From sequence record PP993145.1: a stretch of DNA of 64,000 bases; one strand, 5' to 3'. The notes under the pieces are model-generated. The model saw nothing but the letters and a program-made list of their open reading frames with translations, made no database searches and was not told where the DNA came from. The DNA comes from Escherichia phage phiP4. Of the stretch, positions 5,152-63,899 are shown one piece after another (position 1 is the stretch's first letter; each line of letters starts with the position of its first letter). A program made the position numbers and the translations under genes.

Positions 5152-5591
5152 TATTTTATCTCCATTCTTAACTTTGAAAACTTATTATACCAAACTATAT
5201 GATTATCGTCAATTACAAATTTATGATAACATGCTGGTACGGTATAAGTTCCATAATCTGTGACACGCTGCACAACCTTGTGTGCACACAGTCGACAACC
5301 ATGCCCTTCTAAATGAGATCTAGCAGTTTGCCAGTAATAACCATCATGATCTGGACAATAGATCTCGACTTGCTGTTGCATTGTTTTGTAATTTACACGC
5401 TCATATCCAAAGAAAGCTCCATGAACTGCAACAGCTTTCTTGATAAATATAAGGTTTAGTGCTTCTTGTTGAAAGTCGGGATGTAGCTGCTTAATCTTAG
5501 TTCTATTAATAGATCCATCCGATTTGATGAACCTATTTATTGGAAAGTTGTTAGCTTCCTCGATTAGTAATTCATTTACTTTTTCTCTCAT
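5151..5591 (-). CDS. hypothetical Cys/His-containing protein (track ORF 5151..5693; start moved to ATG at 5591)
   Basis: Track ORF overlaps the upstream ORF by 100 nt; internal ATG at 5589..5591 removes the overlap. Confidence 0.45.
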   Translation of the reverse strand: MREKVNELLIEEANNFPINRFIKSDGSINRTKIKQLHPDFQQEALNLIFIKKAVAVHGAFFGYERVNYKTMQQQVEIYCPDHDGYYWQTARSHLEGHGCRLCAHKVVQRVTDYGTYTVPACYHKFVIDDNHIVWYNKFSKLRMEIK

Positions 5592-7930: not shown

Positions 7931-8200
7931 TTATTTCTTACCTTTCAGTTGCTTAACTTCACGCTCAAAAGATGCTGCACGACGTTCGGCAGTTGCCTGA
8001 TGTTCTTTCGCAAAACGTGCTTCCTGTTTTGCTAGGTTGAACGCCATAGCATTCTTATTCAGGGAATCATACATCTTTTTCATTGCCGGGATAGACATCT
8101 TCATGAGCTGGCCTTCAAAACCCTGCATGTCGAGGAGAATTGCCAGAACGTTAGCCATTTCATTTTTAGTCATGTTTTCCATTAGAATTTCCTCTCTCAT
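7931..8200 (-). CDS. hypothetical protein (89 aa)
   Basis: ORF track; promoter 8215..8243 immediately upstream. Confidence 0.5.
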   Translation of the reverse strand: MREEILMENMTKNEMANVLAILLDMQGFEGQLMKMSIPAMKKMYDSLNKNAMAFNLAKQEARFAKEHQATAERRAASFEREVKQLKGKK

Positions 8201-8214
8201 TAACTTATGAACTT

Positions 8215-8243
8215 ATTATACAGAATTTTAAGGCTTAAAGCAA
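8215..8243 (-). promoter_or_regulatory. sigma70-type early promoter (TTGCTT-N17-TATAAT on minus strand)
   Basis: -10 complement ATTATA at 8215..8220, -35 complement AAGCAA at 8238..8243, 17-nt spacer. Confidence 0.6.
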
Positions 8244-8689: not shown

Positions 8690-8719
8690 TTTGATTCCTT
8701 CTAATCAATTTATAAAGTA

Positions 8720-8748
8720 ATTATACAGAAACTTAAGCATTTTAGCAA
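8720..8748 (-). promoter_or_regulatory. sigma70-type early promoter (TTGCTA-N17-TATAAT)
   Basis: Hexamers and 17-nt spacer read directly. Confidence 0.6.
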
Positions 8749-10253: not shown

Positions 10254-10517
10254 ATAACAGTTAAAATAGTTGTGCCATAGTCATTAGATAGTTGGAGAGT
10301 ATAACCCTCTTTATAGAGGGCTTTTATAGCTTCATAACTAATTTCATCACGATTAAACTGCACAAAAGAACCCCCCAATCCCCACAGAAGAAACTATTCT
10401 CTTTTTAACATACTTATATGGTTTCTTTCTGCTATTAAGAAGTGCAGCTCTATTTATCCTGGCTAAACGTTTTGCTTGTTCCGCTAACATTTAATCCTCC
10501 AATCAATTTATATAACT

Positions 10518-10546
10518 ATTATACCAAAATTTTTAGCAAAAAGCAA
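10518..10546 (-). promoter_or_regulatory. sigma70-type early promoter (TTGCTT-N17-TATAAT)
   Basis: Hexamers and spacer read directly; conserved leader element follows. Confidence 0.55.
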
Positions 10547-11302: not shown

Positions 11303-11377
11303 AATATATACCTCTCTTAACTAATTTATGTATATATTATATAATAACTAGGGCTAAAAGTCAACTACTTTTTTATC

Positions 11378-15847: not shown

Positions 15848-15878
15848 ATTTAATCCTCTTGCCTCAATCTATAAACAT

Positions 15879-15907
15879 ATTATACAAAAGTTTGGGCATC
15901 TAAGCAA
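15879..15907 (-). promoter_or_regulatory. sigma70-type early promoter (TTGCTT-N17-TATAAT)
   Basis: Hexamers and spacer read directly. Confidence 0.6.
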
Positions 15908-17973: not shown

Positions 17974-18003
17974 TTCAAACCTCTCTCATCAATTTATAAA
18001 CAT

Positions 18004-18032
18004 ATTATAGCAAGAAAAGAGAGGTTTAGCAA
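18004..18032 (-). promoter_or_regulatory. sigma70-type early promoter (TTGCTA-N17-TATAAT)
   Basis: Hexamers and spacer read directly. Confidence 0.6.
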
Positions 18033-20298: not shown

Positions 20299-20328
20299 TT
20301 GGTTTCCCTCTCATTAATTTATATAAAT

Positions 20329-20357
20329 ATTATAACAAGAAATAAGAGAGAAAGCAA
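20329..20357 (-). promoter_or_regulatory. sigma70-type early promoter (TTGCTT-N17-TATAAT)
   Basis: Hexamers and spacer read directly. Confidence 0.6.
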
Positions 20358-23929: not shown

Positions 23930-24138
23930 TAATTTTTGTTAACTCACTTTATAAGATATATTATACAGAGAATTAAGCAGAATAGCAAATGAATTTTTAA
24001 TAAATTTACTTATTGTGTAGGCCACCTAGAGGCTATGAACCCCACGGCTGACAAAGAAGTTTGCGAGACTTCTCTTAAATGCCAGAATAGACCCGCCGAT
24101 CTATCGGAACCTACATAATAAGTAAACTTTATAGTGTC

Positions 24139-25505: not shown

Positions 25506-25748
25506 TCATTTAACACGCTCCGGTAGATCTTCTAGTTTATATTCAGTAGCCACATTAGCAGCATCTAAAAGTAATCCCATGTGTTTAAGGATTTTAGTGA
25601 TAGATTCGCCTTTGGCTTCTTCTACGAAAGAACGTAGATGAACAAAGTCAATTCCACCGTCCATACCAGAGAAAATATTTAGTAAGCGAAGCATTACCAG
25701 CTTACGTTCATTCAATTCTTGTTCTGTCATGTTGCTTCTCCAGTTCAA
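25506..25748 (-). CDS. hypothetical protein (80 aa)
   Basis: ORF track; promoter 25760..25788 upstream. Confidence 0.5.
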   Translation of the reverse strand: MNWRSNMTEQELNERKLVMLRLLNIFSGMDGGIDFVHLRSFVEEAKGESITKILKHMGLLLDAANVATEYKLEDLPERVK

Positions 25749-25759
25749 TTTATATAATT

Positions 25760-25788
25760 ATTATACAGAACTTTTGGAAACTAAGCAA
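25760..25788 (-). promoter_or_regulatory. sigma70-type early promoter (TTGCTT-N17-TATAAT)
   Basis: Hexamers and spacer read directly. Confidence 0.6.
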
Positions 25789-26408: not shown

Positions 26409-26487
26409 ATATTTAGAAGTATTCAAAAAATTCTCATTTAAACACTTTTAAATATGTTTCCAAATTAGATAAATATTATATCAAGTT

Positions 26488-26526
26488 TTATAGCACTGAG
26501 CAAGTCAAATTTTAAAGAACTTGCTC
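26488..26526 (-). terminator. 13-bp perfect hairpin (GCACTGAGCAAGT ... ACTTGCTCAGTGC), terminator-like, downstream of 26540..26815
   Basis: Perfect inverted repeat followed by A/U-rich sequence; overlaps a promoter-like -35. Confidence 0.4.
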
Positions 26527-26815: not shown

Positions 26816-26905
26816 TCGTTAACTCCTCCATCAATTTATATAACTATTATACCAGAAATTTAAAGCAAAAGGCAAGTACATTTTTAAAAATTCTGTTTGG
26901 AAGAG

Positions 26906-27867: not shown

Positions 27868-27945
27868 TGGTGGCTCCCCGAGGATTCGAACCTACGTACC
27901 TTCCGGTTATGAGCCGGGTGCTCATACCATATGAGCTTGAGAACC
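27868..27945 (-). tRNA. tRNA with anticodon CAT (third CAT tRNA; Met or Ile2), imperfect T-stem
   Basis: Hand fold: acceptor GGTTCTC/GGGAGCC, D-arm GCTC/GAGC, anticodon loop CTCATAA, CCA. Confidence 0.5.
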
Positions 27946-28040: not shown

Positions 28041-28061
28041 GAATTTATAAGATATATTATA

Positions 28062-28580
28062 TTAGAAATTTAGCTTCATAGCAAGAAAATTTTTCAAGTT
28101 TTCGGTAGACATCTCATCCACATCTACAGGAGAAACAAAGCCGTTTAATTTTCTAGCAAATTTTTCACCTGCAGGGTCATTATCCCCGACAGCTACCAAT
28201 TTAAAAGGTAATAATTTCAGTTGCTTTAATAACGCTTTTCCTGGAGAAGAACCCAACATTGCCAGGGCTGGATAACCAGCGTTATGTAACGCAACTGCCT
28301 TAAATACAGATTCAGCAATCAATACTACTTTTTCATCTCCATTGAGAGTTTCTAGTCCCCATACACACTGGATAGTAGAATAAGTAAAATATTTAGCTTC
28401 AAATGGGCACTTACCATGACCTTTTGGAGCAGAAGGATTATACGTCTGATAGCCTCTCAACATCCCAGAGAAGTCATACAACGGGACTGTTAGCCATCCT
28501 TCCGGACTTAACCAGCAATGATATTTATCTGTATCAAATCCTCTAGATAAGAGGTGCTGTGTTAGCTCATCAACATTCAT
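28062..28580 (-). CDS. hypothetical protein (track ORF 28062..28631; start moved to ATG at 28580)
   Basis: Promoter -10 at 28611..28616 lies inside the track ORF; ATG at 28580 has a GAGAGG RBS. Confidence 0.5.
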   Translation of the reverse strand: MNVDELTQHLLSRGFDTDKYHCWLSPEGWLTVPLYDFSGMLRGYQTYNPSAPKGHGKCPFEAKYFTYSTIQCVWGLETLNGDEKVVLIAESVFKAVALHNAGYPALAMLGSSPGKALLKQLKLLPFKLVAVGDNDPAGEKFARKLNGFVSPVDVDEMSTENLKNFLAMKLNF

Positions 28581-28610
28581 ATTTGGTTCCTCTCTCAAAT
28601 TTATAGATAT

Positions 28611-28639
28611 ATTATACAGAGAATTTAGCATTCAAGCAA
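28611..28639 (-). promoter_or_regulatory. sigma70-type early promoter (TTGCTT-N17-TATAAT)
   Basis: Hexamers and spacer read directly. Confidence 0.6.
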
Positions 28640-32138: not shown

Positions 32139-32210
32139 TACCGACCGTAGGATTCGAACCTACATCTTCCACCAGTTACGGCTTGATAATACCAATTATA
32201 CTAGGACGGC
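32139..32210 (-). other. tRNA-like element with acceptor and perfect T-arm but no recognisable anticodon arm
   Basis: T-arm GTAGG-TTCGAAT-CCTAC; acceptor 6/7 paired; no CCA. Confidence 0.3.
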
Positions 32211-32470
32211 AGTGTTACTACATAAGTGATTTCCACACCCCACTATTTATAAATTAGAGAAGAGTTTAAGGGAGAGGTTTCAGACGCCTCATTTTACACG
32301 TTCTAGCCACTAACCGGGATTGCCGCCCCCTGTGTACTAGTTTTACAACTAACCCACCGACTCTATTCAATGCGCTCCGGTTGGGATTCTGCACTCAGCG
32401 TAATCGGCTCGCTGTTCCCTAATTTATGAATATATTATACATAATTTATAAGCATTTAGCAAATGAATTT

Positions 32471-33075: not shown

Positions 33076-33143
33076 ATTTCGCTTCCTCTCATTAATTTAT
33101 GAAAGTATTATACAGAAATTTAAGTAGTTAAGCAAGTAAATTT

Positions 33144-33916: not shown

Positions 33917-34358
33917 AATAGCCTCGTTTCATCAATTTAAAAATATATTATACAGATAACTTAGTAAATTAGCAAATACATTTTTAAATTGTGAAACTAG
34001 TAAACCGATAAACAGCCTAGAGGCGCCACAGGCCATATCTTATGAGCCATGTACCTTTGATCTAGGGTTTGAATCATCAACGAATACTTTGCATCTTTTA
34101 GCTTTAGAAGTTTAGAAGTTTGAGTTCTTTAAACTTTTCAGCTTTCATACTTAAATGTTGATCTTTGAAGTTGTGTCGGTAATATCAACGACGCTTTGTT
34201 TTTACGTGTCAGATTAAATGTCTGATGTAATAAACATAATCTCCAATAGATTATACTTTATAGTATGGTCAGCGGTCTTATTTAACCTCGTATTTCAACC
34301 GCTGCTGCGAGGTAAGATGCTTGGGCTTTCGTCTACCGATTTACTAGCTTTTAAATTA

Positions 34359-35245: not shown

Positions 35246-35315
35246 ATTTGTTTTCCTTTTATTGTTTTCTCAAATTTATGAATATATTATACAGAATTTT
35301 GGAGCCGGAAGCAAA

Positions 35316-37118: not shown

Positions 37119-37193
37119 TATTTGTTTTCCTTTTTGTTTATCAATTTATGAAGTATATTATACGAGAATTTGAAGCGTTTAGCAAATGAATTT

Positions 37194-37924: not shown

Positions 37925-38001
37925 AAAGCCCTCCTCACTTTCAATACGAATATTATACTAAATTAGAGGGCTTTAAGCAAGAGAATTTTTTAATTTATTT
38001 A

Positions 38002-38958: not shown

Positions 38959-39052
38959 ATGTGTATCTCCAATTTATAAAATATATTATATTTAAATTTC
39001 ACTAAATAAGCAAATGAAATTTAAATATAATAGCCCCGAAGGGCTACTTAAG

Positions 39053-41567: not shown

Positions 41568-41673
41568 TGATTTTCCTCTTTCTCACTATTTCAGGAATAT
41601 TATAGCAAATCTGGTAGCGATTAGCAAGTAAAATTTCAAAGAAAAAGGAGACCCGAAGATCTCCTTGTTTTTA

Positions 41674-45131: not shown

Positions 45132-45416
45132 TCCTATAGTGTACTTCGCTAACAGAGGATCAACAAAAAGATCTTGTTTATCAACTTACAAATATATTAT
45201 ACCAATATATACAGTAAAAAGCAACTACAATTTTAAATAAGCCTATGATATTGCATTTAAATAAAAAATTTGCTTGCTTTTAACGTGAGATGTGTGATAC
45301 TAGATAATCATTTTATATCGCGTGCACGAGTGCGTGATTATACAATTTTTAATAGAGATTGGCAAATAAAATTTTTTGACTCAGATCATGTTACAGAACT
45401 TTATAGTAAAATATTG

Positions 45417-45474: not shown

Positions 45475-47349
45475 ATGAATCGCAATGAAGAACTAAAGTA
45501 TAAAGAAATGCAGGCGTTAATTAGAAACTGCAAAGAGATTATCGAAGGGTCAGCAGATGAAGAGCTGCTGTTTAATAATGCTAATAAACCCTCAGAACGT
45601 TTCCCTACACAAAGGGATATGCTTGCAGGTGAGTTGAGTAAGTATCTGATTCTAGAAGAAATGCCAATTCAGATTCGAAATGCTCATATGATTGGGGATA
45701 TTCATTTCCATGATGCTGATTATGCTGCATTAGGCATGACTAACTGTTGCCTGGTAGCTCTGGAAGATATGTTAAAGAATGGTATGAAGGTTGGTAATGC
45801 TGAAATTAGCACTCCAAACTCTATCACTACTGCGGCGGCTATCACTGCTCAGATTATCACTCAAGTTAGCTCCCATCAGTATGGTGGTACTTCTGTAGAT
45901 CGCCTTGATGAAGTATTAGCCCCTTATGTTCGTAAATCCTATGACAAAAATCATGCGTTTGCAAAACGTTGGACTAAGGATGAAGCCAAAGCATCTGTAA
46001 TGGCTACGGAGATGACTGAAAAAGAAGTCTATGACGCTTGTCAGGGTTTAGAATATGAAATCAATACCATGTTTAACTCTAATGGTCAGAGTCCATTTAT
46101 TACCTTTGGTTTTGGTCTAGGAACTTCCTGGGAAGCACGTCTAGTACAGAAAGCAATACTGAAAGTACGCATGGATGGTTTAGGTATCAATAAACGTACA
46201 GCTATCTTCCCAAAACTGGTATTTGTACTTCGTGATGGCGTAAATATGAAACCAGGAGATGTTAATTATGACATCAAGAAGTTAGCTATGAAATGTACTG
46301 CTGAACGTATGTATCCAGATTATATCAGCTATGACAAAGTTGTAGAAGTTACTGGAGACTACAAAGTTTCTATGGGCTGCCGTTCATTCCTAGCTGCTAC
46401 AGAAGATGGTGAAACTGCCGGTCGTAATAACTTAGGTGTTGTTTCTGTAAACTTGCCTAGAATTGCTATCGAAGCTGAAGGAAATATTGACCTATTCTTT
46501 GATTTGCTTGAGCTACGTGTGGATACAGCATTAAAAGCGTTGGAGTGGAGAGTTGATCGCTTAAAATATATCCAAGCTAAAGCTGCACCCATCCTCTATA
46601 TGTCAGGAGCTTTTGGGTTACGCTTGGAGCCTGATGAATATGTATTCGATCATTTCTATAACCGTGCTTCTGTATCCCTAGGGTATATTGGTTGCCATGA
46701 AATGCTACAGTTCATGTTTGGCAAAGATGTAGACACAATGTCCGAGACCTGCATCAAGTTTGTTCAGCGTGTATTGCAGTACATGCGAGATAGGGTAGAT
46801 CAGAAGAAGGAAGAAACTAAGTTAGGTTATAGCCTATATGCTACACCATCGGAATCCCTATGCGATCGTTTTTGTCGTCTAGACCGTGAGTATTTCCCGG
46901 AGCATGAAGATATTCTGTCCAAAGGATACTACACTAACTCGCACCACCTTGATGTAGAACGTAAAGTTGCTCCTAACGTCAAATTTGATTATGAATCTAA
47001 CTTTACTCCGATTGCTTCTGGTGGGTGCATTTCCTATGTAGAACTACCAGATATGAAACGATTCCCAGATGCACTGGAATGGGTTATTAATTATGCCGCT
47101 AGTAAAGTTCATTACTTCGGTATCAATACTCCAGTGGATTCTTGTGGTAAATGTGGATTCTTAGGTGAAACAATAGCATCCGAGGATGGATTTAAGTGCC
47201 CTATCTGTGGTAATCATGACCCCGAAACTCTTGAAGTAACTCGTCGAGTTTGTGGGTATCTTGGAAATCCGGGTGCTCGTCCCTTTAACCCCGGCAAACA
47301 GCACGAGGTGATGGGCAGAGTGAAACATCAGGATATTCGAGCTAAATAA
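45475..47349 (+). CDS. nrdD: anaerobic ribonucleoside-triphosphate reductase (class III RNR, 624 aa)
   Basis: C-terminal glycyl radical motif RVCGYLG and Cys-rich zinc site (CGKCG ... CPICG). Confidence 0.8.
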   Translation: MNRNEELKYKEMQALIRNCKEIIEGSADEELLFNNANKPSERFPTQRDMLAGELSKYLILEEMPIQIRNAHMIGDIHFHDADYAALGMTNCCLVALEDMLKNGMKVGNAEISTPNSITTAAAITAQIITQVSSHQYGGTSVDRLDEVLAPYVRKSYDKNHAFAKRWTKDEAKASVMATEMTEKEVYDACQGLEYEINTMFNSNGQSPFITFGFGLGTSWEARLVQKAILKVRMDGLGINKRTAIFPKLVFVLRDGVNMKPGDVNYDIKKLAMKCTAERMYPDYISYDKVVEVTGDYKVSMGCRSFLAATEDGETAGRNNLGVVSVNLPRIAIEAEGNIDLFFDLLELRVDTALKALEWRVDRLKYIQAKAAPILYMSGAFGLRLEPDEYVFDHFYNRASVSLGYIGCHEMLQFMFGKDVDTMSETCIKFVQRVLQYMRDRVDQKKEETKLGYSLYATPSESLCDRFCRLDREYFPEHEDILSKGYYTNSHHLDVERKVAPNVKFDYESNFTPIASGGCISYVELPDMKRFPDALEWVINYAASKVHYFGINTPVDSCGKCGFLGETIASEDGFKCPICGNHDPETLEVTRRVCGYLGNPGARPFNPGKQHEVMGRVKHQDIRAK

Positions 47350-47354
47350 GCTAA

Positions 47355-47400
47355 TCAGCCGGGTTGCTAGTCGACCTGGCTTTTATTTTATTTGCTTTCA
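47355..47400 (+). terminator. rho-independent terminator after nrdD (imperfect GC hairpin + TTTTATTTTATTT)
   Basis: Hairpin followed by T-run; overlaps the next promoter. Confidence 0.5.
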
Positions 47401-47420
47401 GCCAAAAATTTATATATAAT
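47392..47420 (+). promoter_or_regulatory. sigma70-type early promoter (TTGCTT-N17-TATAAT)
   Basis: Hexamers and spacer read directly; conserved leader follows. Confidence 0.6.
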
Positions 47421-47448
47421 AGATTTATAAATTTGATGAGAGAAAGAT

Positions 47449-49792: not shown

Positions 49793-50185
49793 ATGGAACA
49801 AGTATATTGGCGTCAGATTGATCCTAGTTTGGTGAAACGTGCGGAGAAGCTGCTACAACGTTGGTTGGGGGTAAGACAAGCCTCCTTCACTTTTCCGGAG
49901 CAGCAAATAGATGATCCCTGTGTTGGTGTTTTCCTATCCGGCTACGCGGGGGGATGGGAGTTGGATTGGAATGAATTGTCTGCTATGGGCTTGATTGTTG
50001 CCCTAAACTTCTCTTTGTTCCATCCACGTGGTTTGGCCATATGTCGTGTGCCGGATGATGGTTGTTCGCCATATCTTTTACAGGTGGAAGATGATATTTG
50101 GGAGTACACTCCAGATATTCTCGCAGAAGCTAAAGAACAATTAAATCGTGTTGGGATTTATGTTCCGGGCCTAAATGATGAATGA
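49793..50185 (+). CDS. hypothetical protein, tandem paralog B (130 aa)
   Basis: Paralogous to the previous ORF. Confidence 0.5.
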   Translation: MEQVYWRQIDPSLVKRAEKLLQRWLGVRQASFTFPEQQIDDPCVGVFLSGYAGGWELDWNELSAMGLIVALNFSLFHPRGLAICRVPDDGCSPYLLQVEDDIWEYTPDILAEAKEQLNRVGIYVPGLNDE

Positions 50186-50276: not shown

Positions 50277-50305
50277 TTGCAGGATGCCCAAAATCTTGAT
50301 ATAAT
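50277..50305 (+). promoter_or_regulatory. sigma70-type promoter (TTGCAG-N17-TATAAT) about 500 nt upstream of the large ATPase gene
   Basis: Hexamers and spacer read directly. Confidence 0.5.
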
Positions 50306-50804
50306 ATTTATATTGAATTGAGAGACATTAGTAAAAATTGATTTTGCTAATTTTTCTTGTTTACAATCCGCGATACGGAACAGTTAGGCTGCCCCATTAA
50401 GGGTTGTTTTAACTGTTACGTGTTAGTTTTTAAACAAATAGTTAATAGAATACTTAGCGATCTACATCCCGTAGGAACCCTGGTAAGGCCTCGAAGCAAC
50501 CTAGTGTGAGGTGGTTGTGAAGTGAGACGGGAGGAGTGAAAAACTCCGAGAAGTGATGACGTAAGGTATACTGCATCTAGTATGAGCTAGTACATGAAGC
50601 ATTAGGTGAGCAAATCTGGCTTAGCGGCCATCCTCAAGGATTTGTGCGGTATAGTGAAGCGGCAGTGTAGCGTGAAAGTGGAAGTTGCCACCCCACTTCA
50701 GTATTTGCAATTAATTTGTTGAGAAATTGACAGTAACAGTTGTTCTATTCTTTCTGAATAGTCCTAAAGAAAACTTATTTCATTTCCAACACAGGAGTAT
50801 TGTT

Positions 50805-53594: not shown

Positions 53595-53811
53595 AAAATG
53601 GGAAACAAGGAAGTTCCCAGTAAAAGAGCGTAAAGTTCCTGTTTACGACACTTCGGAAAAGCTATGTAGGGTGGTACCACATAGATTAGCTGGCATCCCT
53701 AACATATCCGAGTGGTTACTTAAACAACGGAAAACAAACGTGTCTCTTCGCATCGGCTTTGAGTTAGATAAAGTCTATGCTGAACTTGCTTCTTTGCTCA
53801 AGGAATCGTAA
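53569..53811 (+). CDS. hypothetical basic protein (80 aa)
   Basis: ORF track; overlaps the 3-prime end of the ATPase gene. Confidence 0.35.
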   Translation: MLEMTVKNKKWETRKFPVKERKVPVYDTSEKLCRVVPHRLAGIPNISEWLLKQRKTNVSLRIGFELDKVYAELASLLKES

Positions 53812-53819
53812 AAATTTAT

Positions 53820-53848
53820 TTGCTTTCAGGAAAATTTTTCTGTATAAT
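53820..53848 (+). promoter_or_regulatory. PN25-like strong early promoter (TTGCTT-N17-TATAAT) with leader ATTCATAAATTTGAGAGAGGAGTT
   Basis: Near-exact match to the phage T5 PN25 promoter and leader as recalled. Confidence 0.75.
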
Positions 53849-53879
53849 AGATTCATAAATTTGAGAGAGGAGTTTAAAT

Positions 53880-54584
53880 ATGGCTGGTTCTCGTAGAAAG
53901 AAACACATTCATGAAATCCCGGATGAGGTCTTTAAAAAGGTTATAGAGCATCTGGAGAACGGGGGCACTAAGAAAGCAGCATGTGAAATGCTCGGCGTAT
54001 CATCCAATCCAACTATGGAAAGGATGATTGAAGAATGGCAAGACCGCCAGATTCAAGTTGCCGAAATGAAGAAAAAGAAACGTGGCACACTTATTGAGGG
54101 CATCGAGTTAGCTAACGTTATTGAGCAGTATTTATCTGGTGATTCTTTCGAAGAAATTGCCGATCGTAATTACCGCTCTGTAGCAATGGTTAAATCTGTT
54201 CTGGAACGATATGGTGCTCTACTTCGTTTGAACGATATTGTAGATCCATTGAATCCCCCAATTATTCCTGATGATGCTGTAGCAGAAGAATTTGCAGTTG
54301 GTGAGCTTGTTTGGGTTCCTGGATACCAGTGTATCGGTGAAATCAAAAAAGCAATGGATAATCCTGTTGGTTGTTACCGTGTATGGCTTCTATCGGAAGG
54401 CAAACAACAGAACGTCCATTATATGAATTACGAGCTGGCCTCTGTTAAACATCTGGAAAAGCTAGGGGTTGACGTAAAGTCTCTGGGATATAAATGGACT
54501 CGTGAAGAAATTATTACGTTGATTAACGAAGCTGTTAAGGCTGCCCTGAAACTTGATAAAGAAAAAGGAAAACGCCGTGAGTAG
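53880..54584 (+). CDS. early protein (234 aa) expressed from the PN25-like promoter
   Basis: ORF track; strong RBS GAGAGG. Confidence 0.6.
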   Translation: MAGSRRKKHIHEIPDEVFKKVIEHLENGGTKKAACEMLGVSSNPTMERMIEEWQDRQIQVAEMKKKKRGTLIEGIELANVIEQYLSGDSFEEIADRNYRSVAMVKSVLERYGALLRLNDIVDPLNPPIIPDDAVAEEFAVGELVWVPGYQCIGEIKKAMDNPVGCYRVWLLSEGKQQNVHYMNYELASVKHLEKLGVDVKSLGYKWTREEIITLINEAVKAALKLDKEKGKRRE

Positions 54585-54845: not shown

Positions 54846-54874
54846 TTGCTTAATCCTATAATTCTTGATATAAT
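54846..54874 (+). promoter_or_regulatory. sigma70-type early promoter (TTGCTT-N17-TATAAT)
   Basis: Hexamers and spacer read directly. Confidence 0.55.
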
Positions 54875-54931
54875 ATTCTCATAGTTTGAAAGAACTATTC
54901 TGTTTAATTCTTAATTAAGGAAATATAAAAT

Positions 54932-55676: not shown

Positions 55677-55726
55677 GAAACCAATTAGCCCCTATATGGG
55701 GCTTTTTGTGTATTTGGGATATGTAA

Positions 55727-56035
55727 ATGAGCGAACAGGTAAATCAAAACTATGAAGGACACGTTGATGACCAGTCCATCATACTTTGGGAGAAGGAGGG
55801 AGAACAAGTAAGATTAACAGTATCTGAATTTCGTGGGAATCTATACATGGGTATTCGTTACTGGCTTCTTGATATTAATGATGAATGGTTTCCAACGAAA
55901 TCTGGCTTCTCTTTTCCTTACACCCTAGAAACAACATCACAGCTTTTCTACGCGTTTACACAGATTCTTAGCGAATCTGAGGTTTTGCATGAAGTACAGA
56001 AACGAGCTGAAGAACTCAAAGCCAAGAATGCCTAG
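55727..56035 (+). CDS. hypothetical protein (102 aa)
   Basis: ORF track. Confidence 0.5.
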   Translation: MSEQVNQNYEGHVDDQSIILWEKEGEQVRLTVSEFRGNLYMGIRYWLLDINDEWFPTKSGFSFPYTLETTSQLFYAFTQILSESEVLHEVQKRAEELKAKNA

Positions 56036-56062
56036 TTCTTGGCTTTTTCTTTATAAATGTAT

Positions 56063-56091
56063 TTGCTTTCAACTCAGTTTTGTTATATAAT
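56063..56091 (+). promoter_or_regulatory. sigma70-type early promoter (TTGCTT-N17-TATAAT)
   Basis: Hexamers and spacer read directly. Confidence 0.6.
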
Positions 56092-56122
56092 ATTTATATA
56101 AATTAATGAGAGATATAAATAA

Positions 56123-57237: not shown

Positions 57238-57266
57238 TTGCTAAATGCTTAAATACTTGCTATAAT
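57238..57266 (+). promoter_or_regulatory. sigma70-type early promoter (TTGCTA-N17-TATAAT) between the two ligase halves
   Basis: Hexamers and spacer read directly. Confidence 0.6.
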
Positions 57267-57293
57267 ATTTATATAAATTGATAAGGAAGAAAT

Positions 57294-58858: not shown

Positions 58859-60382
58859 ATGCTCCTTCCCCTTTTTGCATTTAGAAGGCACGAAAGCGTG
58901 CAAAGGAGAATGACCTTGTTTAACGTGCAAGCTGTAGTGTTGAAGATGCTTCTAGCTTCCGAACAGAAGCAAATAGCATTGGAAACATTCTCAAAACTGC
59001 ATAAAGATCATTTTAATGACGCTTTCTCCTCAATTTACCAAGCCGTCCAGAATTATTATAAAAAATATAACACAATGCCGTCCATTGACGCACTTATGCT
59101 TGAAGCTAATAGGAACGCCCGCCTTTCTCAAGCCCTAGTCGTCTTAGCTAACACTCAAATTCCAGAAGTGAGCATGGAACAGGCACTTGAAGTCCTAGAG
59201 GCCGAATATACACAGGATTTATTCCTGAAGCTTCTAGAAACAGACGTGCTTCAAGATTTAACAATGCTGGATCAGGGAGAAATTCTCAACCGAGTTGCCT
59301 CCCTTCACTTAAAATTAGAAGAGAAAGTAACGAATACTGGAAAAGTATTCAACGCAGATAACATGCGTATTTTCCAGAGAGAAGAAGATACCAAACTGAA
59401 CTTAATCGCTCTTGGTATTTGTAATGAGTTCGACGCTCAAATTGGTTTAGCTCGCACAGAAACGTTACTGCTTGGTGGTTGGCGTGGTACTGGTAAATCC
59501 ATTATCTGTTCAAACATACAGGTTCAGCAATATTTGAATGGGGATATTGCTCCATACTTCTCAATTGAGATGAAAGAACATGAAGTATTTAGACGTAATC
59601 TAGCCATGTTAGCTGGTGTATCAGCATTAGCAATGCGTAATAATACTCTAGAAGGTGCAGCTCTATTGAGATTAGCCAGAACTAGAGCTAGAATGTTTAA
59701 TGGGGGTGAAGAGCTTTTCGATAACTTCGTTAAACAGTATACAATGGCTAAGATGAGTGATTTCTACGATATGGAGAGTAAGCTAATAGAAGGGTATGAG
59801 CTACATACTCCTATGATTATTGTTTATGACCCTGAGCTGTCTATTACAACAGTTGACGTAGAATTAAATAAATTAGTTGCTAGATATGGAGATAAAGTTA
59901 CAGTAGCTTTACTGGACTATATTAACCAAACCCGACTTCCAGACTCTAAAACCATTGATATGTATGACTGGAAAGAACAGATGGTTGTTAGCTCGTCTTT
60001 CAAATCTATCTGCCAGAAACATAACGTGGCTGGTGTAGCTCCTTACCAGATCGATCAAGATGGTAGAACACGTATGTCAAAGGGGATTCTTGATTCCGCA
60101 GACATGGCTGCTAATCTTAATGCTGCAAAAGCTGATAATGGTCAAGGTGCCATTATGTTTGACTTCGTTAAGACTCGTTCTTCTGATAGCGTGAAGTTTA
60201 TGCCTAAAATGAACTGGGAAACTCTGCGAATGGATAACACTACCAACCTAGCAATGGAAGATATATCTCAAATGGAAGCTGAGTTCGTTATCCCTATTGA
60301 GAAGGATAAGCCGGCTCAACCTAAACGTGCTAAGAAAGACAAAACTGAAAATTCAACAGGTGAACAGGCCAGCGATATATGA
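58859..60382 (+). CDS. DnaB-like replicative helicase (507 aa)
   Basis: Walker A GWRGTGKS; GGAGG RBS; position upstream of primase. Confidence 0.6.
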   Translation: MLLPLFAFRRHESVQRRMTLFNVQAVVLKMLLASEQKQIALETFSKLHKDHFNDAFSSIYQAVQNYYKKYNTMPSIDALMLEANRNARLSQALVVLANTQIPEVSMEQALEVLEAEYTQDLFLKLLETDVLQDLTMLDQGEILNRVASLHLKLEEKVTNTGKVFNADNMRIFQREEDTKLNLIALGICNEFDAQIGLARTETLLLGGWRGTGKSIICSNIQVQQYLNGDIAPYFSIEMKEHEVFRRNLAMLAGVSALAMRNNTLEGAALLRLARTRARMFNGGEELFDNFVKQYTMAKMSDFYDMESKLIEGYELHTPMIIVYDPELSITTVDVELNKLVARYGDKVTVALLDYINQTRLPDSKTIDMYDWKEQMVVSSSFKSICQKHNVAGVAPYQIDQDGRTRMSKGILDSADMAANLNAAKADNGQGAIMFDFVKTRSSDSVKFMPKMNWETLRMDNTTNLAMEDISQMEAEFVIPIEKDKPAQPKRAKKDKTENSTGEQASDI

Positions 60383-61269
60383 GTAGAATAACAGAACTAC
60401 TTGATCTGAAAGGCATTGAATATAAAGACACAGGTGGGGACATCCTCATCTGTTGTCTCAATCCAGATCATGACGATAAACACCCAAGTTTGCGTATTGA
60501 TCCTGAAACAGGTATTATGCACTGCTTGAGTTGTGGCTTCGGTAAAGGTATACCGAGCATTTACCATTATTTTAATGAGACTCAGTACCGACAGTCTCCA
60601 AGACTATCGCAGGTACGTAAAAAGATTTCAGAGATTAGGAATGGATCTACGAATCTTGCAATTCCTGAATCTGCTTACCTTTTCGAAGGTGATTTCCGAG
60701 GTATAAGTTCTAAGACCTTGAAGAAATATTTTGCTTTCCAACATCAAGCAGACTGGGAAGGCAGAATTGTATTCCCAATCACAGATGCTGTTGGACGCAA
60801 TATCCTATTTTTGGGTCGTTCTATAAACAGTTCTGCCCCTCCTAAATACTTAGTAAAACCAAAACAAGTTTCACCACCGATTTTCCCTGTACGATATAAT
60901 ACTCCAGTTCTTATTCTAGTTGAAGGTATCTTTGATATGCTGAACCTAGAGGATAATGGTATAGACTATGCTTCTTGCTGCTTTGGTACACATCAGTTTA
61001 CTTCGGATAACATTGCAGATAAGTTCAGTCCTTATATTATTGCTGGTGTAAAAGTTGTTGTTATCTTACTAGATAATGATGCTTCTGGTAATAAAGCTGC
61101 ACAAGCATTGGCCAAGTTAATTCGTACAAAAACGCGTTTAACACCTGTAGTTGCTAACTTTCTTCTGCCCGAAGGCAAAGATCCTGGTGATTTAAACAAA
61201 GATGAAATTGATATGTTAGCAAAACGTATTGAAATTTTAGTTGCTGAATCGCTTAAAGATTTGGTATAA
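60379..61269 (+). CDS. DNA primase (zinc-binding + TOPRIM, 296 aa)
   Basis: Zinc motif CCLNPDHDDKHPS...CLSCG and TOPRIM-like LVEG ... LLDNDASG. Confidence 0.7.
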   Translation: MSRITELLDLKGIEYKDTGGDILICCLNPDHDDKHPSLRIDPETGIMHCLSCGFGKGIPSIYHYFNETQYRQSPRLSQVRKKISEIRNGSTNLAIPESAYLFEGDFRGISSKTLKKYFAFQHQADWEGRIVFPITDAVGRNILFLGRSINSSAPPKYLVKPKQVSPPIFPVRYNTPVLILVEGIFDMLNLEDNGIDYASCCFGTHQFTSDNIADKFSPYIIAGVKVVVILLDNDASGNKAAQALAKLIRTKTRLTPVVANFLLPEGKDPGDLNKDEIDMLAKRIEILVAESLKDLV

Positions 61270-61331
61270 TATATTGGTAAGTTAGAGAAGAAACACTGAA
61301 GTTATACTTACTTACCAAGAGGAGATTAAAT

Positions 61332-63899
61332 TTGAAAATCGCAGTAGTTGATAAAGCTCTAAATAACACTCGTTACGATAAACATTTCCAGCTATACGGC
61401 GAGGAAGTTGATGTATTCCATATGTGTAATGAGAAGTTATCCGGTCGTTTGCTCAAAAAGCATATTACTATCGGGACTCCGGAAAACCCATTTGATCCGA
61501 ATGATTATGATTTTGTTATACTGGTAGGTGCCGAACCTTTCCTGTACTTTGCTGGTAAGAAAGGCATTGGTGACTATACTGGTAAACGTGTAGAGTATAA
61601 TGGATATGCTAACTGGATTGCGAGCATCAGCCCAGCCCAGTTACACTTCAAACCTGAAATGAAACCAGTTTTCGATGCAACAGTAGAGAATATCCACGAT
61701 ATTATCAATGGTCGTGAGAAGATTGCAAAAGCTGGTGATTACCGTCCTATTACTGACCCTGACGAGGCGGAAGAATATATCAAGATGGTGTATAATATGG
61801 TTATCGGACCTGTAGCATTTGACTCCGAAACCTCAGCACTATACTGTCGAGATGGTTATCTGCTTGGTGTTTCTATGTCTCACCAAGAATATCAGGGTGT
61901 ATATATCGATTCTGATTGTCTCACAGAGGTTGCAGTATATTATCTCCAGAAAATTCTGGATAGTGAAAACCACACTATTGTTTTTCACAACCTGAAGTTT
62001 GATATGCACTTTTATAAGTACCATCTGGGACTTACTTTTGATAAAGCACATAAAGAACGCAGGCTCCATGATACAATGTTGCAGCATTATGTTCTAGATG
62101 AGCGTCGTGGTACTCATGGCTTGAAATCTCTAGCAATGAAGTATACCGATATGGGTGACTATGATTTTGAACTAGATAAGTTCAAGGAGGATTATTGCAA
62201 AGCACATAAAATCAAGAAAGAAGATTTCACCTATGATTTAATTCCGTTTGATATTATGTGGCCTTACGCTGCAAAAGATACCGATGCCACCATACGTTTG
62301 CACAACTTCTTCTTACCAAAAATTGAGAAGAATGAAAAACTTTGCAGTCTGTATTATGATGTTCTAATGCCTGGTTGCGTGTTCCTGCAACGTGTTGAGG
62401 ATCGTGGTGTACCTATTTCTATTGATCGTTTAAAAGAAGCTCAGTACCAGTTAACCCATAATCTGAATAAAGCTCGTGAGAAACTGTATACTTATCCAGA
62501 AGTCGTTCAGCTAGAGAAAGACCAGAACGAAGCGTTTAACCCAAACTCTGTTAAGCAGCTACGTGTTCTTCTGTTTGATTATGTTGGGTTAACTCCAACA
62601 GGTAAATTGACAGATACTGGAGCGGACTCTACAGATGCAGAAGCTCTGAACGAATTGTCTACGCAGCATCCAATTGCTAAGACCCTACTAGAGATTCGTA
62701 AGCTGACTAAGCTGATCTCTACTTACGTTGAGAAGATTCTTCTGAGCATTGATGCTGATGGTTGCATTCGTACTGGCTTCCATGAGCATATGACTACTTC
62801 TGGTCGTCTGAGTTCTTCTGGTAAACTGAACCTGCAACAGTTACCTCGTGATGAATCCATTATCAAGGGTTGTGTAGTAGCCCCTGTAGGATACCGTGTA
62901 ATTGCATGGGACTTAACAACTGCGGAAGTTTATTATGCTGCTGTTCTATCTGGTGATAGAAATATGCAACAGGTATTTATCAACATGAGAAATGAACCTG
63001 ATAAATACCCTGACTTCCACTCTAACATCGCACACATGGTGTTTAAACTCCAATGCGAGCCTCGTGATGTTAAAAAGTTATTCCCAGCTCTGCGTCAGGC
63101 TGCTAAGGCAATTACCTTCGGTATTTTGTATGGTTCTGGCCCGGCTAAAGTAGCTCATTCTGTTAATGAAGCTCTTCTGGAACAAGCTGCTAAGACAGGT
63201 GAACCGTTTGTAGAGTGTACTGTTGCAGATGCTAAAGAGTACATTGAAACTTACTTCGGTCAGTTCCCGCAGCTTAAGCGTTGGATTGATAAATGTCATG
63301 ACCAGATCAAGAATCATGGGTTTATCTATAGTCACTTTGGTCGTAAACGTCGTCTGCATAATATCCATTCCGAAGACCGTGGTGTTCAGGGTGAAGAAAT
63401 CCGTTCTGGATTTAACGCAATCATTCAGTCTGCTTCTTCTGACAGTCTCCTTTTAGGTGCTGTAGATGCAGATAATGAGATCATTTCTCTTGGCCTAGAA
63501 CAAGAGATGAAGATTGTTATGCTGGTTCATGACTCCGTAGTTGCTATTGTTCGTGAGGATTTGATCGACCAATACAATGAAATCCTGATTCGTAATATCC
63601 AAAAAGACCGTGGTATCAGTATTCCTGGCTGTCCGATTGGTATTGATTCAGATTCTGAAGCCGGAGGTTCTCGTGACTATTCTTGTGGTAAGATGAAGAA
63701 ACAGCACCCATCAATCGCTTGTATTGATGATGATGAATATACTCGTTATGTCAAGGGTGTATTACTTGATGCAGAGTTCGAGTATAAGAAACTAGCTGCA
63801 ATGGATAAAGAGCATCCAGATCATAGCAAATACAAGGATGATAAGTTTATTGCTGTATGTAAAGATTTGGATAACGTGAGAAGGATTCTCGGTGCTTGA
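61332..63899 (+). CDS. DNA polymerase, family A, with 3-prime to 5-prime exonuclease domain (855 aa)
   Basis: Exo motifs (FDSETSALY, YAAKD) and Pol A motifs (FGILYG, VHDS); length matches T5 DNA polymerase. Confidence 0.85.
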   Translation: MKIAVVDKALNNTRYDKHFQLYGEEVDVFHMCNEKLSGRLLKKHITIGTPENPFDPNDYDFVILVGAEPFLYFAGKKGIGDYTGKRVEYNGYANWIASISPAQLHFKPEMKPVFDATVENIHDIINGREKIAKAGDYRPITDPDEAEEYIKMVYNMVIGPVAFDSETSALYCRDGYLLGVSMSHQEYQGVYIDSDCLTEVAVYYLQKILDSENHTIVFHNLKFDMHFYKYHLGLTFDKAHKERRLHDTMLQHYVLDERRGTHGLKSLAMKYTDMGDYDFELDKFKEDYCKAHKIKKEDFTYDLIPFDIMWPYAAKDTDATIRLHNFFLPKIEKNEKLCSLYYDVLMPGCVFLQRVEDRGVPISIDRLKEAQYQLTHNLNKAREKLYTYPEVVQLEKDQNEAFNPNSVKQLRVLLFDYVGLTPTGKLTDTGADSTDAEALNELSTQHPIAKTLLEIRKLTKLISTYVEKILLSIDADGCIRTGFHEHMTTSGRLSSSGKLNLQQLPRDESIIKGCVVAPVGYRVIAWDLTTAEVYYAAVLSGDRNMQQVFINMRNEPDKYPDFHSNIAHMVFKLQCEPRDVKKLFPALRQAAKAITFGILYGSGPAKVAHSVNEALLEQAAKTGEPFVECTVADAKEYIETYFGQFPQLKRWIDKCHDQIKNHGFIYSHFGRKRRLHNIHSEDRGVQGEEIRSGFNAIIQSASSDSLLLGAVDADNEIISLGLEQEMKIVMLVHDSVVAIVREDLIDQYNEILIRNIQKDRGISIPGCPIGIDSDSEAGGSRDYSCGKMKKQHPSIACIDDDEYTRYVKGVLLDAEFEYKKLAAMDKEHPDHSKYKDDKFIAVCKDLDNVRRILGA

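What the first reader, a model, noticed from the sequence alone, without database searches (positions are those of the whole stretch)
53820..53880. Family of at least 25 near-identical promoters with a conserved transcribed leader; one matches T5 PN25
The unit TTGCTT/TTGCTA-N17-TATAAT followed by a leader of type ATTCATAAATTTGAGAGAGG and then ATG recurs before most transcription units on both strands. The copy at 53820..53880 matches the T5 PN25 promoter and leader as I recall it. The conserved leader may act in translation initiation or RNA stability, not only as promoter sequence.
Basis: partly seen in the sequence, partly recalled or inferred. Interest (0 to 1): 0.55.

Follow-up and report, generated by a model that had tools for sequence, protein, structure and literature searches.

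The report
Known T5-type early promoter family

Summary
TTGCTW-N17-TATAAT occurs exactly 25 times (0.04 expected), always pointing along the genes: 20 copies on the minus strand and 5 on the plus strand. The window is a Tequintavirus. The copy at 53820 is base-for-base the 'promoter P-N 25' feature of T5 (AY543070), and all 25 copies correspond to promoters annotated there (24 by sequence match, one by position).

Conservation, measured only at positions not used to select the sites, runs from -47 to +18. It comprises an A-tract, the -35, part of the spacer, the -10, an A/T discriminator, ATAAATTGA starting at +1, and a purine tract.

The 'leader' has two parts:
- **ATAAATT core.** It is locked to the -10 and survives before tRNA/stable-RNA genes and in long leaders.
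- **GAGAGG tract.** It is the Shine-Dalgarno of the first gene and moves with the ATG.

Published N25 work shows the transcribed region controls promoter escape. 'Near-identical' is overstated: mean pairwise identity is 58%.

Small additions here:
- The -10/ITS module is absent from the T5 late and pre-early promoters I inspected.
- It co-varies with the TTGC-type -35.
- It is kept in Klebsiella, Proteus and Vibrio relatives.

Novelty: already known.

The parts
53806..53819 (+). PN25 copy: A/T block upstream of the -35 (GTAAAAATTTAT), resembling a proximal UP element
   Evidence: positions -45..-37 carry 0.7-1.4 bits each; Hsu & Han 2025 describe an UP element in N25
53820..53825 (+). PN25 copy: -35 hexamer TTGCTT
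53843..53848 (+). PN25 copy: -10 hexamer TATAAT (17-bp spacer at 53826-53842)
53849..53854 (+). PN25 copy: discriminator AGATTC (-6..-1), not transcribed
   Evidence: numbering from Klimuk 2020
53855..53864 (+). PN25 copy: initial transcribed sequence ATAAATTTGA; +1 = 53855
53863..53872 (+). PN25 copy: Shine-Dalgarno tract GAGAGAGGAG for the D2-homologue gene (ATG at 53880, 234 codons)
   Evidence: best duplex AGAGGAGU, -8.6 kcal/mol, 6 nt from the ATG
8200..8243 (-). family member (-35 to +9); matches T5 promoter feature 16245-16319
8705..8748 (-). family member; matches T5 P-F30
10503..10546 (-). family member; matches T5 18550-18624; abuts an upstream terminator hairpin
15864..15907 (-). 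family member; matches T5 24443-24517
17989..18032 (-). family member; matches T5 26722-26796
20314..20357 (-). family member; matches T5 P11
23438..23481 (-). family member; matches T5 P13b; no ORF follows (T5 annotates stable RNA 2H, then tRNA-Ala and tRNA-Leu); strong hairpin at +7..+28
23945..23988 (-). family member; matches T5 P13a; tRNA-Pro begins 25 nt after +1; core kept (TATAAAG), no Shine-Dalgarno
25745..25788 (-). family member; matches T5 P14b
28041..28084 (-). family member; matches T5 P15b; tRNA-Ser begins 9 nt after +1; core kept (TATAAATT), no Shine-Dalgarno
28596..28639 (-). family member; matches T5 P15a, which was validated as an early promoter in vivo by primer extension in T5
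32419..32462 (-). family member; matches T5 P16-17; drives the region T5 annotates as stable RNA X; core ATAAATT kept, no Shine-Dalgarno
33092..33135 (-). family member; matches T5 P-D/E33
33932..33975 (-). family member; matches T5 43067-43141
35271..35314 (-). family member; matches T5 44393-44467; 34-nt leader: the core stays at +1 and the Shine-Dalgarno moves to +20
37142..37185 (-). family member; matches T5 P-H207; 32-nt leader
37937..37980 (-). family member with a divergent initial transcribed sequence (ATTGAAAGTG); matches T5 46337-46411
38970..39013 (-). family member; corresponds by position only to T5 46937-47011 (no sequence match at the E-value cut-off used)
41584..41627 (-). family member with a divergent initial transcribed sequence (GAAATAGTG); matches T5 50061-50135 (nrdA promoter)
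45181..45224 (-). family member; matches T5 53638-53712; 67-nt leader
47392..47435 (+). family member; matches T5 55708-55782; abuts an upstream terminator
54846..54889 (+). family member; matches T5 P-N26 (D3 gene); variant sequence ATAGTTTGA; 51-nt leader with a 5'-terminal hairpin
56063..56106 (+). family member; matches T5 65284-65358 (ligA)
57238..57281 (+). family member; matches T5 P-K28a (ligB)
11321..11364 (-). relaxed member (TTGACT -35, exact ATAAATT core); matches T5 19368-19442
26460..26503 (-). relaxed member (TTGCTC); matches T5 P14a
26831..26875 (-). relaxed member (TTGCCT, 18-bp spacer, exact ATAAATT core); matches T5 P15c
50277..50320 (+). relaxed member (TTGCAG); matches T5 58999-59073
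61241..61285 (+). relaxed member (TTGCTG, 18-bp spacer, GTAAGTTAG); matches T5 70987-71061 upstream of the DNA polymerase gene. I equate it with the 'Ppol' early promoter that Klimuk validated by primer extension; the paper's text does not give coordinates.
5169..5212 (-). borderline member (TTGACG -35, weak core, 16 bits); matches T5 13212-13286

Best explanation
The units are the host sigma-70 'early-class' promoters of a T5-like phage (genus Tequintavirus). Each one heads an early transcription unit.

Proposed mechanism:
1. RNA polymerase is captured by an A-tract at -45..-37 (resembling an UP element), a TTGCTW -35, a 17-bp A/T-rich spacer and a perfect TATAAT.
2. The next ~15 bp are kept in fixed register with the -10. 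They are an A/T discriminator (ATATTt) and the first transcribed bases (ATAAATTGA, +1 = A). They belong to the promoter in the kinetic sense. They set how the very tightly bound polymerase starts RNA, cycles abortively and escapes.
3. These same bases are a signature of the early class.
4. The purine-rich tract further downstream (GAGAGG type) is a separate element: the ribosome-binding site of the first gene.

Shown: the sequences, their register, their identity with annotated and partly mapped T5 promoters, and the dependence of N25 output on +3..+20 (published).

Inferred: that the family-wide core works like the N25 one.
For: **Statistics.** 25 matches against 0.04 expected. Information content spans -47..+18 at positions not used for selection. 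Members score 28-63 bits against about 12 for random sequence.

**Identity.** The window is a Tequintavirus. The 53820 copy equals the T5 'promoter P-N 25' feature. All 25 copies correspond to promoter features of AY543070: 24 by sequence, one by position.

**In vivo support in T5.** 11 of 19 known promoters, plus 4 new ones, gave primer-extension products. P15A and Ppol behaved as early promoters (PMC7472727).

**The core is tied to the -10, not to translation.**
- Offset 0 in 19 of 23 copies and +1 in 4, against 19-67 nt to the ATG.
- Retained before tRNA and stable-RNA genes.
- Among all TATAAT occurrences, ATAAATT (at least 6 of 7 bases) sits at offset 6 in 19 cases and at offset 7 in 4, with at most 2 at any other offset from 0 to 20.

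**Class specificity.**
- Absent from the T5 late promoters P-G25 and P-J5 and the pre-early promoter P-H22.
- In T5 75-112 kb the only exact hits are the early promoters P31A, P31B and the lpp promoter.
- It co-varies with the TTGC-type -35: 27 of 30 against 2 of 6, p = 0.008.

**Selection.** The same register-locked module occurs 8 times each in the Klebsiella, Vibrio and Proteus relatives, whose DNA polymerase is 78-58% identical in protein sequence. The promoter upstream of the D2-type gene keeps TATAATAG.T.CATAAATT from E. coli to Vibrio phage while the spacer has diverged.

**Function of the N25 transcribed region.** Replacing +3..+20 lowers productive RNA about 10-fold and slows escape. 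The authors conclude that the native sequence evolved for fast escape (PMC12464699, citing Kammerer 1986). The first ~10 bp dominate escape kinetics in general (PMC5961368).
Against: - No transcript mapping exists for this particular phage.
- Only N25 has had its transcribed region dissected; the family-wide inference is by analogy.
- General rules from other promoters do not predict ATAAATTGA as fast-escaping. T-rich first 7 bp, TG near +6/+7, low duplex stability and -10-like sequences in +2..+10 all correlated with slow escape on lambda PR, deoB and lacUV5 (PMC5961368). The conserved core may therefore be tuned for something other than maximal escape.
- In orthologous promoter pairs with the Klebsiella phage the core is only moderately better conserved than the spacer (66% against 54%).
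- Class specificity fits a regulatory role equally well.
Confidence: 0.8

Rival explanations
1. The discriminator plus initial transcribed sequence is mainly a class code for timing. A phage factor, or phage-modified RNA polymerase (for example the RNAP-binding protein gpT5.026), reads it to shut early promoters down when late transcription starts.
For: - The module is confined to early-class promoters and absent from the late and pre-early ones checked.
- It co-varies with a distinct -35 type.
- It is conserved across the family. Klimuk et al. report that gpT5.026 is also conserved across Demerecviridae (their Fig. S4).
- gpT5.026 lowers RNAP binding to the N25 -12/+2 non-template oligonucleotide 8-fold.
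- A phage lacking gene 026 makes more early and less late RNA.
- The authors single out the ATATT discriminator of early promoters (PMC7472727).
- How T5 switches class with one sigma factor is stated to be unknown.
Against: - gpT5.026 effects in vitro were two-fold or less.
- No sequence-specific factor for this motif is known.
- The discriminator itself is not well conserved in the Vibrio phage (AGTTCC, AGTTTC, TGTTTT); only the +1..+7 core is.
- A kinetic role and a class-code role are not mutually exclusive.
Confidence: 0.2
2. The conserved +1..+9 acts at the RNA level. It would be an A/U-rich 5' end that enhances ribosome loading (S1-type enhancer) or sets mRNA half-life.
For: - Leaders are short and uniform (median 24 nt) and unstructured, with the A/U-rich segment directly upstream of the Shine-Dalgarno.
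- A/U-rich leaders are known translation enhancers (established knowledge).
Against: - The core keeps its register to the -10, not to the Shine-Dalgarno or ATG: in leaders of 32-67 nt it stays at +1.
- It is retained in four copies that drive tRNA or stable-RNA genes.
- The conservation also covers the untranscribed discriminator.
- No protective 5' hairpin is present: mean MFE -3.1 against -2.5 kcal/mol for shuffles.
- No Rfam family matches the leaders.
Confidence: 0.12
3. The units are related by descent and act as portable promoter cassettes, or recombination linkers, that border exchangeable gene modules. This would resemble the early-promoter cassettes described for T4-type phages. Their similarity would then partly reflect spread and gene conversion rather than independent constraint on each base.
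For: - Arbitrary-looking features travel together: the TTGCT -35, the spacer pattern gCTTAAATTTCTG, ATATTT and ATAAATTGA.
- 14 of 60 alignment-block ends between this phage and T5 fall within 12 nt of a promoter unit, against about 3 expected for uniform placement.
- In T5 a homing endonuclease gene (hegH) sits directly after one such promoter and is absent from the window.
Against: - Promoters lie in intergenic DNA, where module borders fall anyway, and this bias was not controlled for.
- Retention in Vibrio and Proteus phages, whose DNA polymerases are only 58-68% identical, requires purifying selection whatever the origin.
- Mean identity between copies is only 58%.
Confidence: 0.1
4. The core contains a -10-like element (TAAATT at +2..+7) and a YG step (TG at +7/+8 or +8/+9). 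These would programme a pause in initial transcription, or a sigma-70-dependent promoter-proximal pause, used as a checkpoint.
For: - TAAATT has the key A2 and T6 of the -10 hexamer (read directly from the sequence).
- TTGA is present at +6..+10 in 15 of 25 copies (read).
- -10-like sequences in +2..+10 and TG near +6 slow escape through pausing on other promoters (PMC5961368).
Against: - The N25 passages I read do not report such a pause.
- The native N25 sequence escapes faster than its replacement.
- The match to the elemental pause consensus at about +17 is poor (my reading of the consensus).
Confidence: 0.05

Closest known systems
Bacteriophage T5 early promoters (P-N25, P-N26, P-K28a, P-H207, P-D/E33, P-F30, P11, P13a/b, P14b, P15a/b, P16-17), as annotated in GenBank AY543070 and first described by Gentz & Bujard 1985
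   Same: - Same genomic positions and strands.
- 92-100% sequence identity for 24 of the 25 units.
- PN25 is identical from the -35 through GAGGAGTT.
- Same architecture: A-tract, TTGCTW, 17 bp, TATAAT, ATATT discriminator.
   Different: - The window is another Tequintavirus isolate, not T5. Alignment blocks are 77-97% identical, with insertions and deletions.
- A few units differ by 1-6 bases.
- In the T5 unit matching 15907 the -35 is TTGCAT.
T5 N25 initial transcribed sequence, called the 'downstream sequence region' (Kammerer et al. 1986; Hsu laboratory)
   Same: The PN25 copy carries exactly the studied +1..+20 sequence (ATAAATTTGAGAGAGGAGTT). Published work shows that this segment sets the abortive/productive ratio and the escape rate.
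   Different: That work concerns one promoter. Here the first ~9 bases are shown to be a register-locked consensus of about 30 promoters and of relatives infecting Klebsiella, Proteus and Vibrio. Whether every member behaves like N25 is untested.
UP element / A-tract upstream of strong sigma-70 promoters (rrnB P1 type)
   Same: AAAAA at -45..-41, followed by TT, matches the position and composition of the proximal UP subsite (consensus from established knowledge). Hsu & Han describe UP elements in N25.
   Different: Contact with the alpha subunit C-terminal domain was not and cannot be tested here. In five copies the block merges with the T-run of an upstream terminator.
T4-type early promoter cassettes (PeSL), proposed to mediate modular shuffling
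   Same: Repeated early promoter units border variable gene modules. Breakpoints relative to T5 are enriched at unit edges.
   Different: There is no general stem-loop partner. The enrichment was not controlled for intergenic bias. Different phage family. My knowledge of PeSL is from memory.
Lambda PR' and lacUV5 sigma-70-dependent promoter-proximal pause elements
   Same: A -10-like hexamer lies within the first transcribed bases (TAAATT at +2..+7).
   Different: No pause has been shown for these promoters. This is a resemblance by sequence only.

Membership tests
T5 early-class sigma-70 promoters | TATAAT -10 and TTGCT-type -35 separated by 17 bp | tested here: met
   25 exact sites against 0.04 expected; six more with one deviation or an 18-bp spacer
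T5 early-class sigma-70 promoters | Positional and sequence correspondence to promoters annotated or mapped in T5 | tested here: met
   24 of 25 match AY543070 promoter features at 92-100% identity, and the 25th matches by position; PN25 is 100% identical over 65 nt
T5 early-class sigma-70 promoters | A-rich block around -43 | tested here: met
   Positions -45..-42 are A in 21-24 of 25 copies
T5 early-class sigma-70 promoters | A/T discriminator of ATATT type (Klimuk 2020) | tested here: met
   -6 is A in 24/25, -5 T in 18/25, -3 T in 21/25, -1 a pyrimidine in 25/25. PN25 itself reads AGATTC.
T5 early-class sigma-70 promoters | Homology in the first transcribed bases (ATAAATTGA around +1..+9) | tested here: met
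   7.1 bits over +1..+9; offset-specific enrichment of 19 at offset 6 against at most 2 at other offsets apart from 7. That Gentz & Bujard already reported a '+7' homology is my recollection; the paper is not held in the library.
T5 early-class sigma-70 promoters | Transcription actually starts at the predicted +1 and follows early kinetics | not testable with these tools
   Known for T5 N25 (+1 numbering) and for P15A and Ppol by primer extension in vivo. No data exist for this isolate.
Shine-Dalgarno ribosome-binding site (3' half of the leader) | Complementarity to the 16S rRNA 3' end, 4-9 nt upstream of a start codon that opens a real ORF | tested here: met
   21 coding copies. Best duplex is -5.6 to -12.2 kcal/mol in 19 of them and -2.9 in two. 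Spacing is 4-9 nt. The downstream ORFs are 45-381 codons.
Structured 5' leader or known cis-regulatory RNA | Conserved secondary structure, or a match to an Rfam family | tested here: not met
   MFE is close to that of shuffles. Rfam returns only tRNAs.
Sigma-70-dependent promoter-proximal pause element | A -10-like hexamer in the initial transcribed region plus a demonstrated pause | tested here: inconclusive
   TAAATT at +2..+7 has the key A2 and T6. Pausing cannot be tested here.
Mobile or recombinogenic promoter cassette (T4 PeSL-like) | Mosaic junctions concentrated at cassette edges beyond what intergenic location alone would give | tested here: inconclusive
   14 of 60 block ends lie at units against about 3 expected for uniform placement, with no intergenic control.

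The most novel reading that the evidence does not exclude
The register-locked discriminator/+1..+9 module (ATATTt-ATAAATTGA) co-varies with the TTGC-type -35. It is conserved from E. coli to Vibrio phages of the Demerecviridae. The most novel reading is that this module is the cis-acting 'early-class code': the handle by which a phage factor or phage-modified host polymerase selectively silences early promoters. That could work through a programmed step in initial transcription. If so, it would explain how T5 runs three temporal classes with a single sigma factor.
Probability: 0.2. Interest if true: 0.5.

Novelty: already known. Interest (0 to 1): 0.15.

Why it matters
T5 early promoters are among the tightest known binders of E. 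coli RNA polymerase. By my recollection PN25 is the basis of widely used expression vectors, and published work makes it the standard model for abortive initiation and promoter escape.

Finding them in a T5-like genome is expected and adds nothing new by itself. Two modest gains come from this check.

First, the analysis separates the leader into two parts: a promoter-locked core and a gene-locked ribosome site.

Second, it shows that the core is class-specific and conserved across distant Demerecviridae. This sharpens a still open question: how these phages time early and late transcription with one sigma factor. It also points to a simple swap experiment that could answer it.

Tried and rejected
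- **Generic sigma-70 scan.** It found 40 sites against 43 expected. It also misses TTGCTT copies, which match only 3 of 6 bases of TTGACA. It is uninformative, so the family-specific pattern is what carries the signal.
- **Rfam on the whole window.** Only tRNAs were found; nothing matched the leaders.
- **Leader folding.** No shared structure, so a structured-leader or 5'-hairpin stability model was dropped.
- **Reading the primary papers.** Gentz & Bujard 1985 and Kammerer 1986 are not held in the library. Their content is cited through later papers or marked as memory.
- **Searches for a T5 transcription-start or RNA-seq map.** Nothing usable turned up. One search failed on a term that was too short.
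- **PWM hit at 20299(+).** Rejected as the reverse-strand shadow of the A/T-rich unit at 20357(-).
- **Exact core hit in the T5 first-step-transfer region (L003 6075-6093).** It has no convincing -35 and was not counted as a member.
- **Scan of viral contigs for the full 19-base pattern.** Most hits are in 100-128 kb contigs, the size typical of T5-like phages. The few contigs of other lengths were not followed up, so occurrence outside the family is untested.
- **An apparent data problem.** For a while I believed loci L004, L006 and L007 were missing from the Python data folder. They were stored inside multi-record files. The analyses were then repeated on them.
Full report
**1. What is there**

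The finding's 60 bases read TTGCTT, then 17 bp, then TATAAT, AGATTC, ATAAATTTGAGAGAGGAGTTTAAAT and ATG.

Twenty matches are on the minus strand between 8.2 and 45.2 kb. Five are on the plus strand between 47.4 and 57.2 kb. This follows the switch in GC skew and gene direction near 46 kb.

I aligned the 25 copies on their hexamers and measured information only at positions that were not part of the search pattern:
- about 10.5 bits in an A-tract block at -47..-36 (ttAAAAATTcat)
- weaker signal in the spacer (gCttAAAtTTcTG)
- about 4.3 bits in the discriminator (-6..-1, ATATTt)
- about 7.1 bits at +1..+9 (ATAAATTGA)
- about 4.2 bits at +10..+18 (purines, GAGAGG)
- nothing beyond -54 or +20

A weight matrix built from the 25 copies scores them at 28-63 bits in leave-one-out tests. 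Random sequence reaches about 12 bits at most. The matrix finds six more relaxed members with the same orientation rule, plus one reverse-strand shadow that I discarded.

'Near-identical' is too strong: mean pairwise identity over -50..+20 is 58%.

**2. What genome this is**

A 3-kb segment around the site is 97-98% identical to many Salmonella and Escherichia T5-like phages. The DNA polymerase encoded at 61332-63899 is up to 99.8% identical to that of Tequintavirus isolates.

Against phage T5 itself (AY543070) the window is colinear. Alignment blocks are 77-97% identical, with many insertions and deletions.

**3. The PN25 claim**

The T5 record annotates 'promoter P-N 25' at 63043-63117, upstream of gene D2. 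Its sequence is identical to the window from the -35 through GAGGAGTT, 100% over 65 nt. The only differences are two changes in the upstream A-tract and one extra T before the ATG.

Of the 25 copies, 24 match a promoter feature of that record at 92-100% identity. They include the historically named P-F30, P11, P13a/b, P14b, P15a/b, P16-17, P-D/E33, P-H207, P-N25, P-N26 and P-K28a. The copy at 39013 corresponds only by position to the feature at 46937-47011. The six relaxed members are also annotated there.

A few other annotated promoters in the interval have a TTGACA-type -35 and lack the downstream consensus. Examples are P12, P-K28b and the nrdD promoter.

The family is therefore already annotated in the reference genome.

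**4. Anatomy of the 'leader'**

For N25 the published numbering makes TATAATAGATTCAT equal to -12..+2 (PMC7472727).

The ATAAATT core starts at +1 in 19 copies and at +2 in 4, out of 23 copies with a recognisable core. Its distance to the start codon varies from 19 to 67 nt. In the long-leader copies (35314, 37185, 45224, 54846) the core stays next to the -10, while the Shine-Dalgarno moves with the ATG. Shine-Dalgarno to ATG spacing is 4-9 nt everywhere.

Four copies are followed by no ORF but by tRNA or stable-RNA genes:
- P13a: tRNA-Pro begins 25 nt after +1.
- P15b: tRNA-Ser begins 9 nt after +1.
- P13b: followed by stable RNA.
- P16-17: followed by stable RNA.

All four keep the core and lose the purine tract.

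An unbiased control took every TATAAT in the window and counted ATAAATT (at least 6 of 7 bases) at each offset from 0 to 20. It gave 19 at offset 6 and 4 at offset 7, with at most 2 anywhere else.

The leaders have no shared fold: mean MFE is -3.1 kcal/mol against -2.5 for shuffles. No Rfam family matches them.

Conclusion: the leader is bipartite. One part is a promoter-locked core. The other is a gene-locked ribosome-binding site.

**5. Class specificity and depth of conservation**

The T5 late promoters P-G25 and P-J5 and the pre-early promoter P-H22 lack the core. In T5 75-112 kb the only exact TATAAT-N6-ATAAATT hits are P31A, P31B (early genes D11-D15) and the lpp promoter. There are none on the coding strand of the roughly 28-kb late block.

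Within the window the core goes with the TTGC-type -35: 27 of 30 against 2 of 6, Fisher p = 0.008.

The same module occurs in three relatives:

| Phage | DNA polymerase identity (protein) | Evidence |
|---|---|---|
| Klebsiella phage Roth49 | 78% | 8 hits at offset 6 |
| Proteus phage PL1 | 68% | 8 hits at offset 6 |
| Vibrio phage phi 3 | 58% | 8 hits at offset 6; 13 sites with at most 2 mismatches against 2.2 expected |

In all three the hits follow gene direction.

The promoter upstream of the D2-type gene keeps TTGCT and TATAATAG.T.CATAAATT in all four phages, while the spacer has diverged. Across paired promoters with the Klebsiella phage, identity is 54% in the spacer, 70% in the discriminator, 66% at +1..+9 and 49% at +10..+20.

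The core is thus under selection at the consensus level across the family. The ATATT discriminator is less deeply conserved than the core.

**6. Mechanism**

The best-supported reading is that these are host sigma-70 early promoters, and that the conserved downstream block is part of the promoter in the kinetic sense.

For N25, replacing +3..+20 (the N25anti variant) makes productive synthesis about 10-fold lower and escape much slower. The authors conclude that the native sequence evolved for fast escape from an escape-limited, very tightly bound promoter (PMC12464699, citing Kammerer et al. 1986). In large-scale assays the first ~10 transcribed bases dominate escape kinetics (PMC5961368).

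A caution applies. The general trends in that second study associate slow escape with T-rich starts, TG near +6, low duplex stability and -10-like sequences. These trends would not have predicted ATAAATTGA as optimal. So the family core may be tuned for something more specific than maximal escape.

The main rival, which is not exclusive, is a class code for timing. gpT5.026 binds RNA polymerase and weakens its hold on the N25 -12/+2 non-template strand 8-fold. It is also needed for a normal early-to-late switch, and Klimuk et al. point to the early-specific discriminator.

An RNA-level role for the core in translation or stability is not excluded. It is disfavoured by the register and tRNA tests above.

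**7. Verdict**

The promoter/PN25 interpretation is correct. The translation/stability idea holds only for the Shine-Dalgarno half.

The feature is already known: it appears in the GenBank annotation, in Gentz & Bujard 1985, in Klimuk 2020 and in the N25 escape literature. The additions made here are the register and tRNA tests, the co-variation with the -35 type, and conservation in Klebsiella, Proteus and Vibrio relatives. They are incremental.

Interest is low (0.15). The residual novel reading, a class code read by a phage factor, has perhaps a 0.2 probability.

Noticed in passing
window 5160, 20369, 23500, 23944, 25716, 26452, 32416, 37195, 38977, 41597, 47440: Breaks in the alignment between this phage and T5 often fall at the edges of promoter units. 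14 of 60 block ends do so, against about 3 expected if placement were uniform. At 41597, T5 carries a homing endonuclease gene (hegH) directly after the promoter, and this phage lacks it. This suggests promoter units border exchangeable modules. The intergenic-location bias was not controlled for.
   Followed up: partly
window 54881-54898 (+): The P-N26 copy (upstream of D3) has a variant start, ATAGTTTGAAAGAACTAT. It can form a hairpin at the very 5' end of a 51-nt leader. The Klebsiella phage orthologue (L005, promoter at 32630) keeps ATAGTTTGAAAC..AAACT and can also pair. This could be a 5'-end stabiliser specific to this mRNA.
   Followed up: partly
window 23419-23440 (-): The transcript from the P13b copy has a strong hairpin at +7..+28 (GAUGAGGAGAAAUCCUCAUC, about -13.8 kcal/mol). 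It lies ahead of a stable-RNA/tRNA cluster rather than an ORF.
   Followed up: no
window 10547-10580 (-), 39014-39045 (-), 41628-41660 (-), 47357-47391 (+), 56018-56062 (+): Several promoters sit directly against an upstream terminator hairpin. The terminator's T-run merges into the A/T block upstream of the -35, giving compact terminator-promoter junctions.
   Followed up: partly
window, leaders of the copies at 8243, 18032, 20357, 23481, 33135, 33975, 47392, 56063: Eight of the 25 leaders contain an ATG at +9 or +10 inside the purine tract (..TTGATGAGAGAGG / ..TTAATGAGAGG). Whether this is anything more than part of the consensus is unknown.
   Followed up: no
window 27871-27945 (-) and 32139-32210 (-): Rfam reports two tRNA-like matches (40.3 and 35.5 bits) that ARAGORN did not call. 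The first lines up with T5 tRNA-Ile2 (CAU). The second lies inside the region T5 annotates as stable 'RNA X', downstream of P16-17.
   Followed up: no
L004 17005-17045 (-), T5 record 92013-92087 (late promoter P-G25), outside the window: The leader of the T5 late promoter P-G25 reads ATTAAAGAGGAGAAATTAACTATGAGA. As far as I recall this is the 'synthetic' RBSII of commercial T5-promoter expression vectors. It also shows that late leaders lack the ATAAATT core.
   Followed up: no
L003 6075-6093 (+), T5 first-step-transfer region, outside the window: There is one exact TATAAT-N6-ATAAATT hit in the pre-early terminal repeat, in the divergent intergenic region. It has no convincing -35 and is not annotated as a promoter.
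   Followed up: partly
window 53850 (PN25), 47422 and 10516: Only 3 of the 25 copies, including PN25, have G at -5 in the discriminator; the family consensus there is T. Hsu & Han link that G to a long-lived open complex. So the best-studied member is atypical at this position.
   Followed up: no
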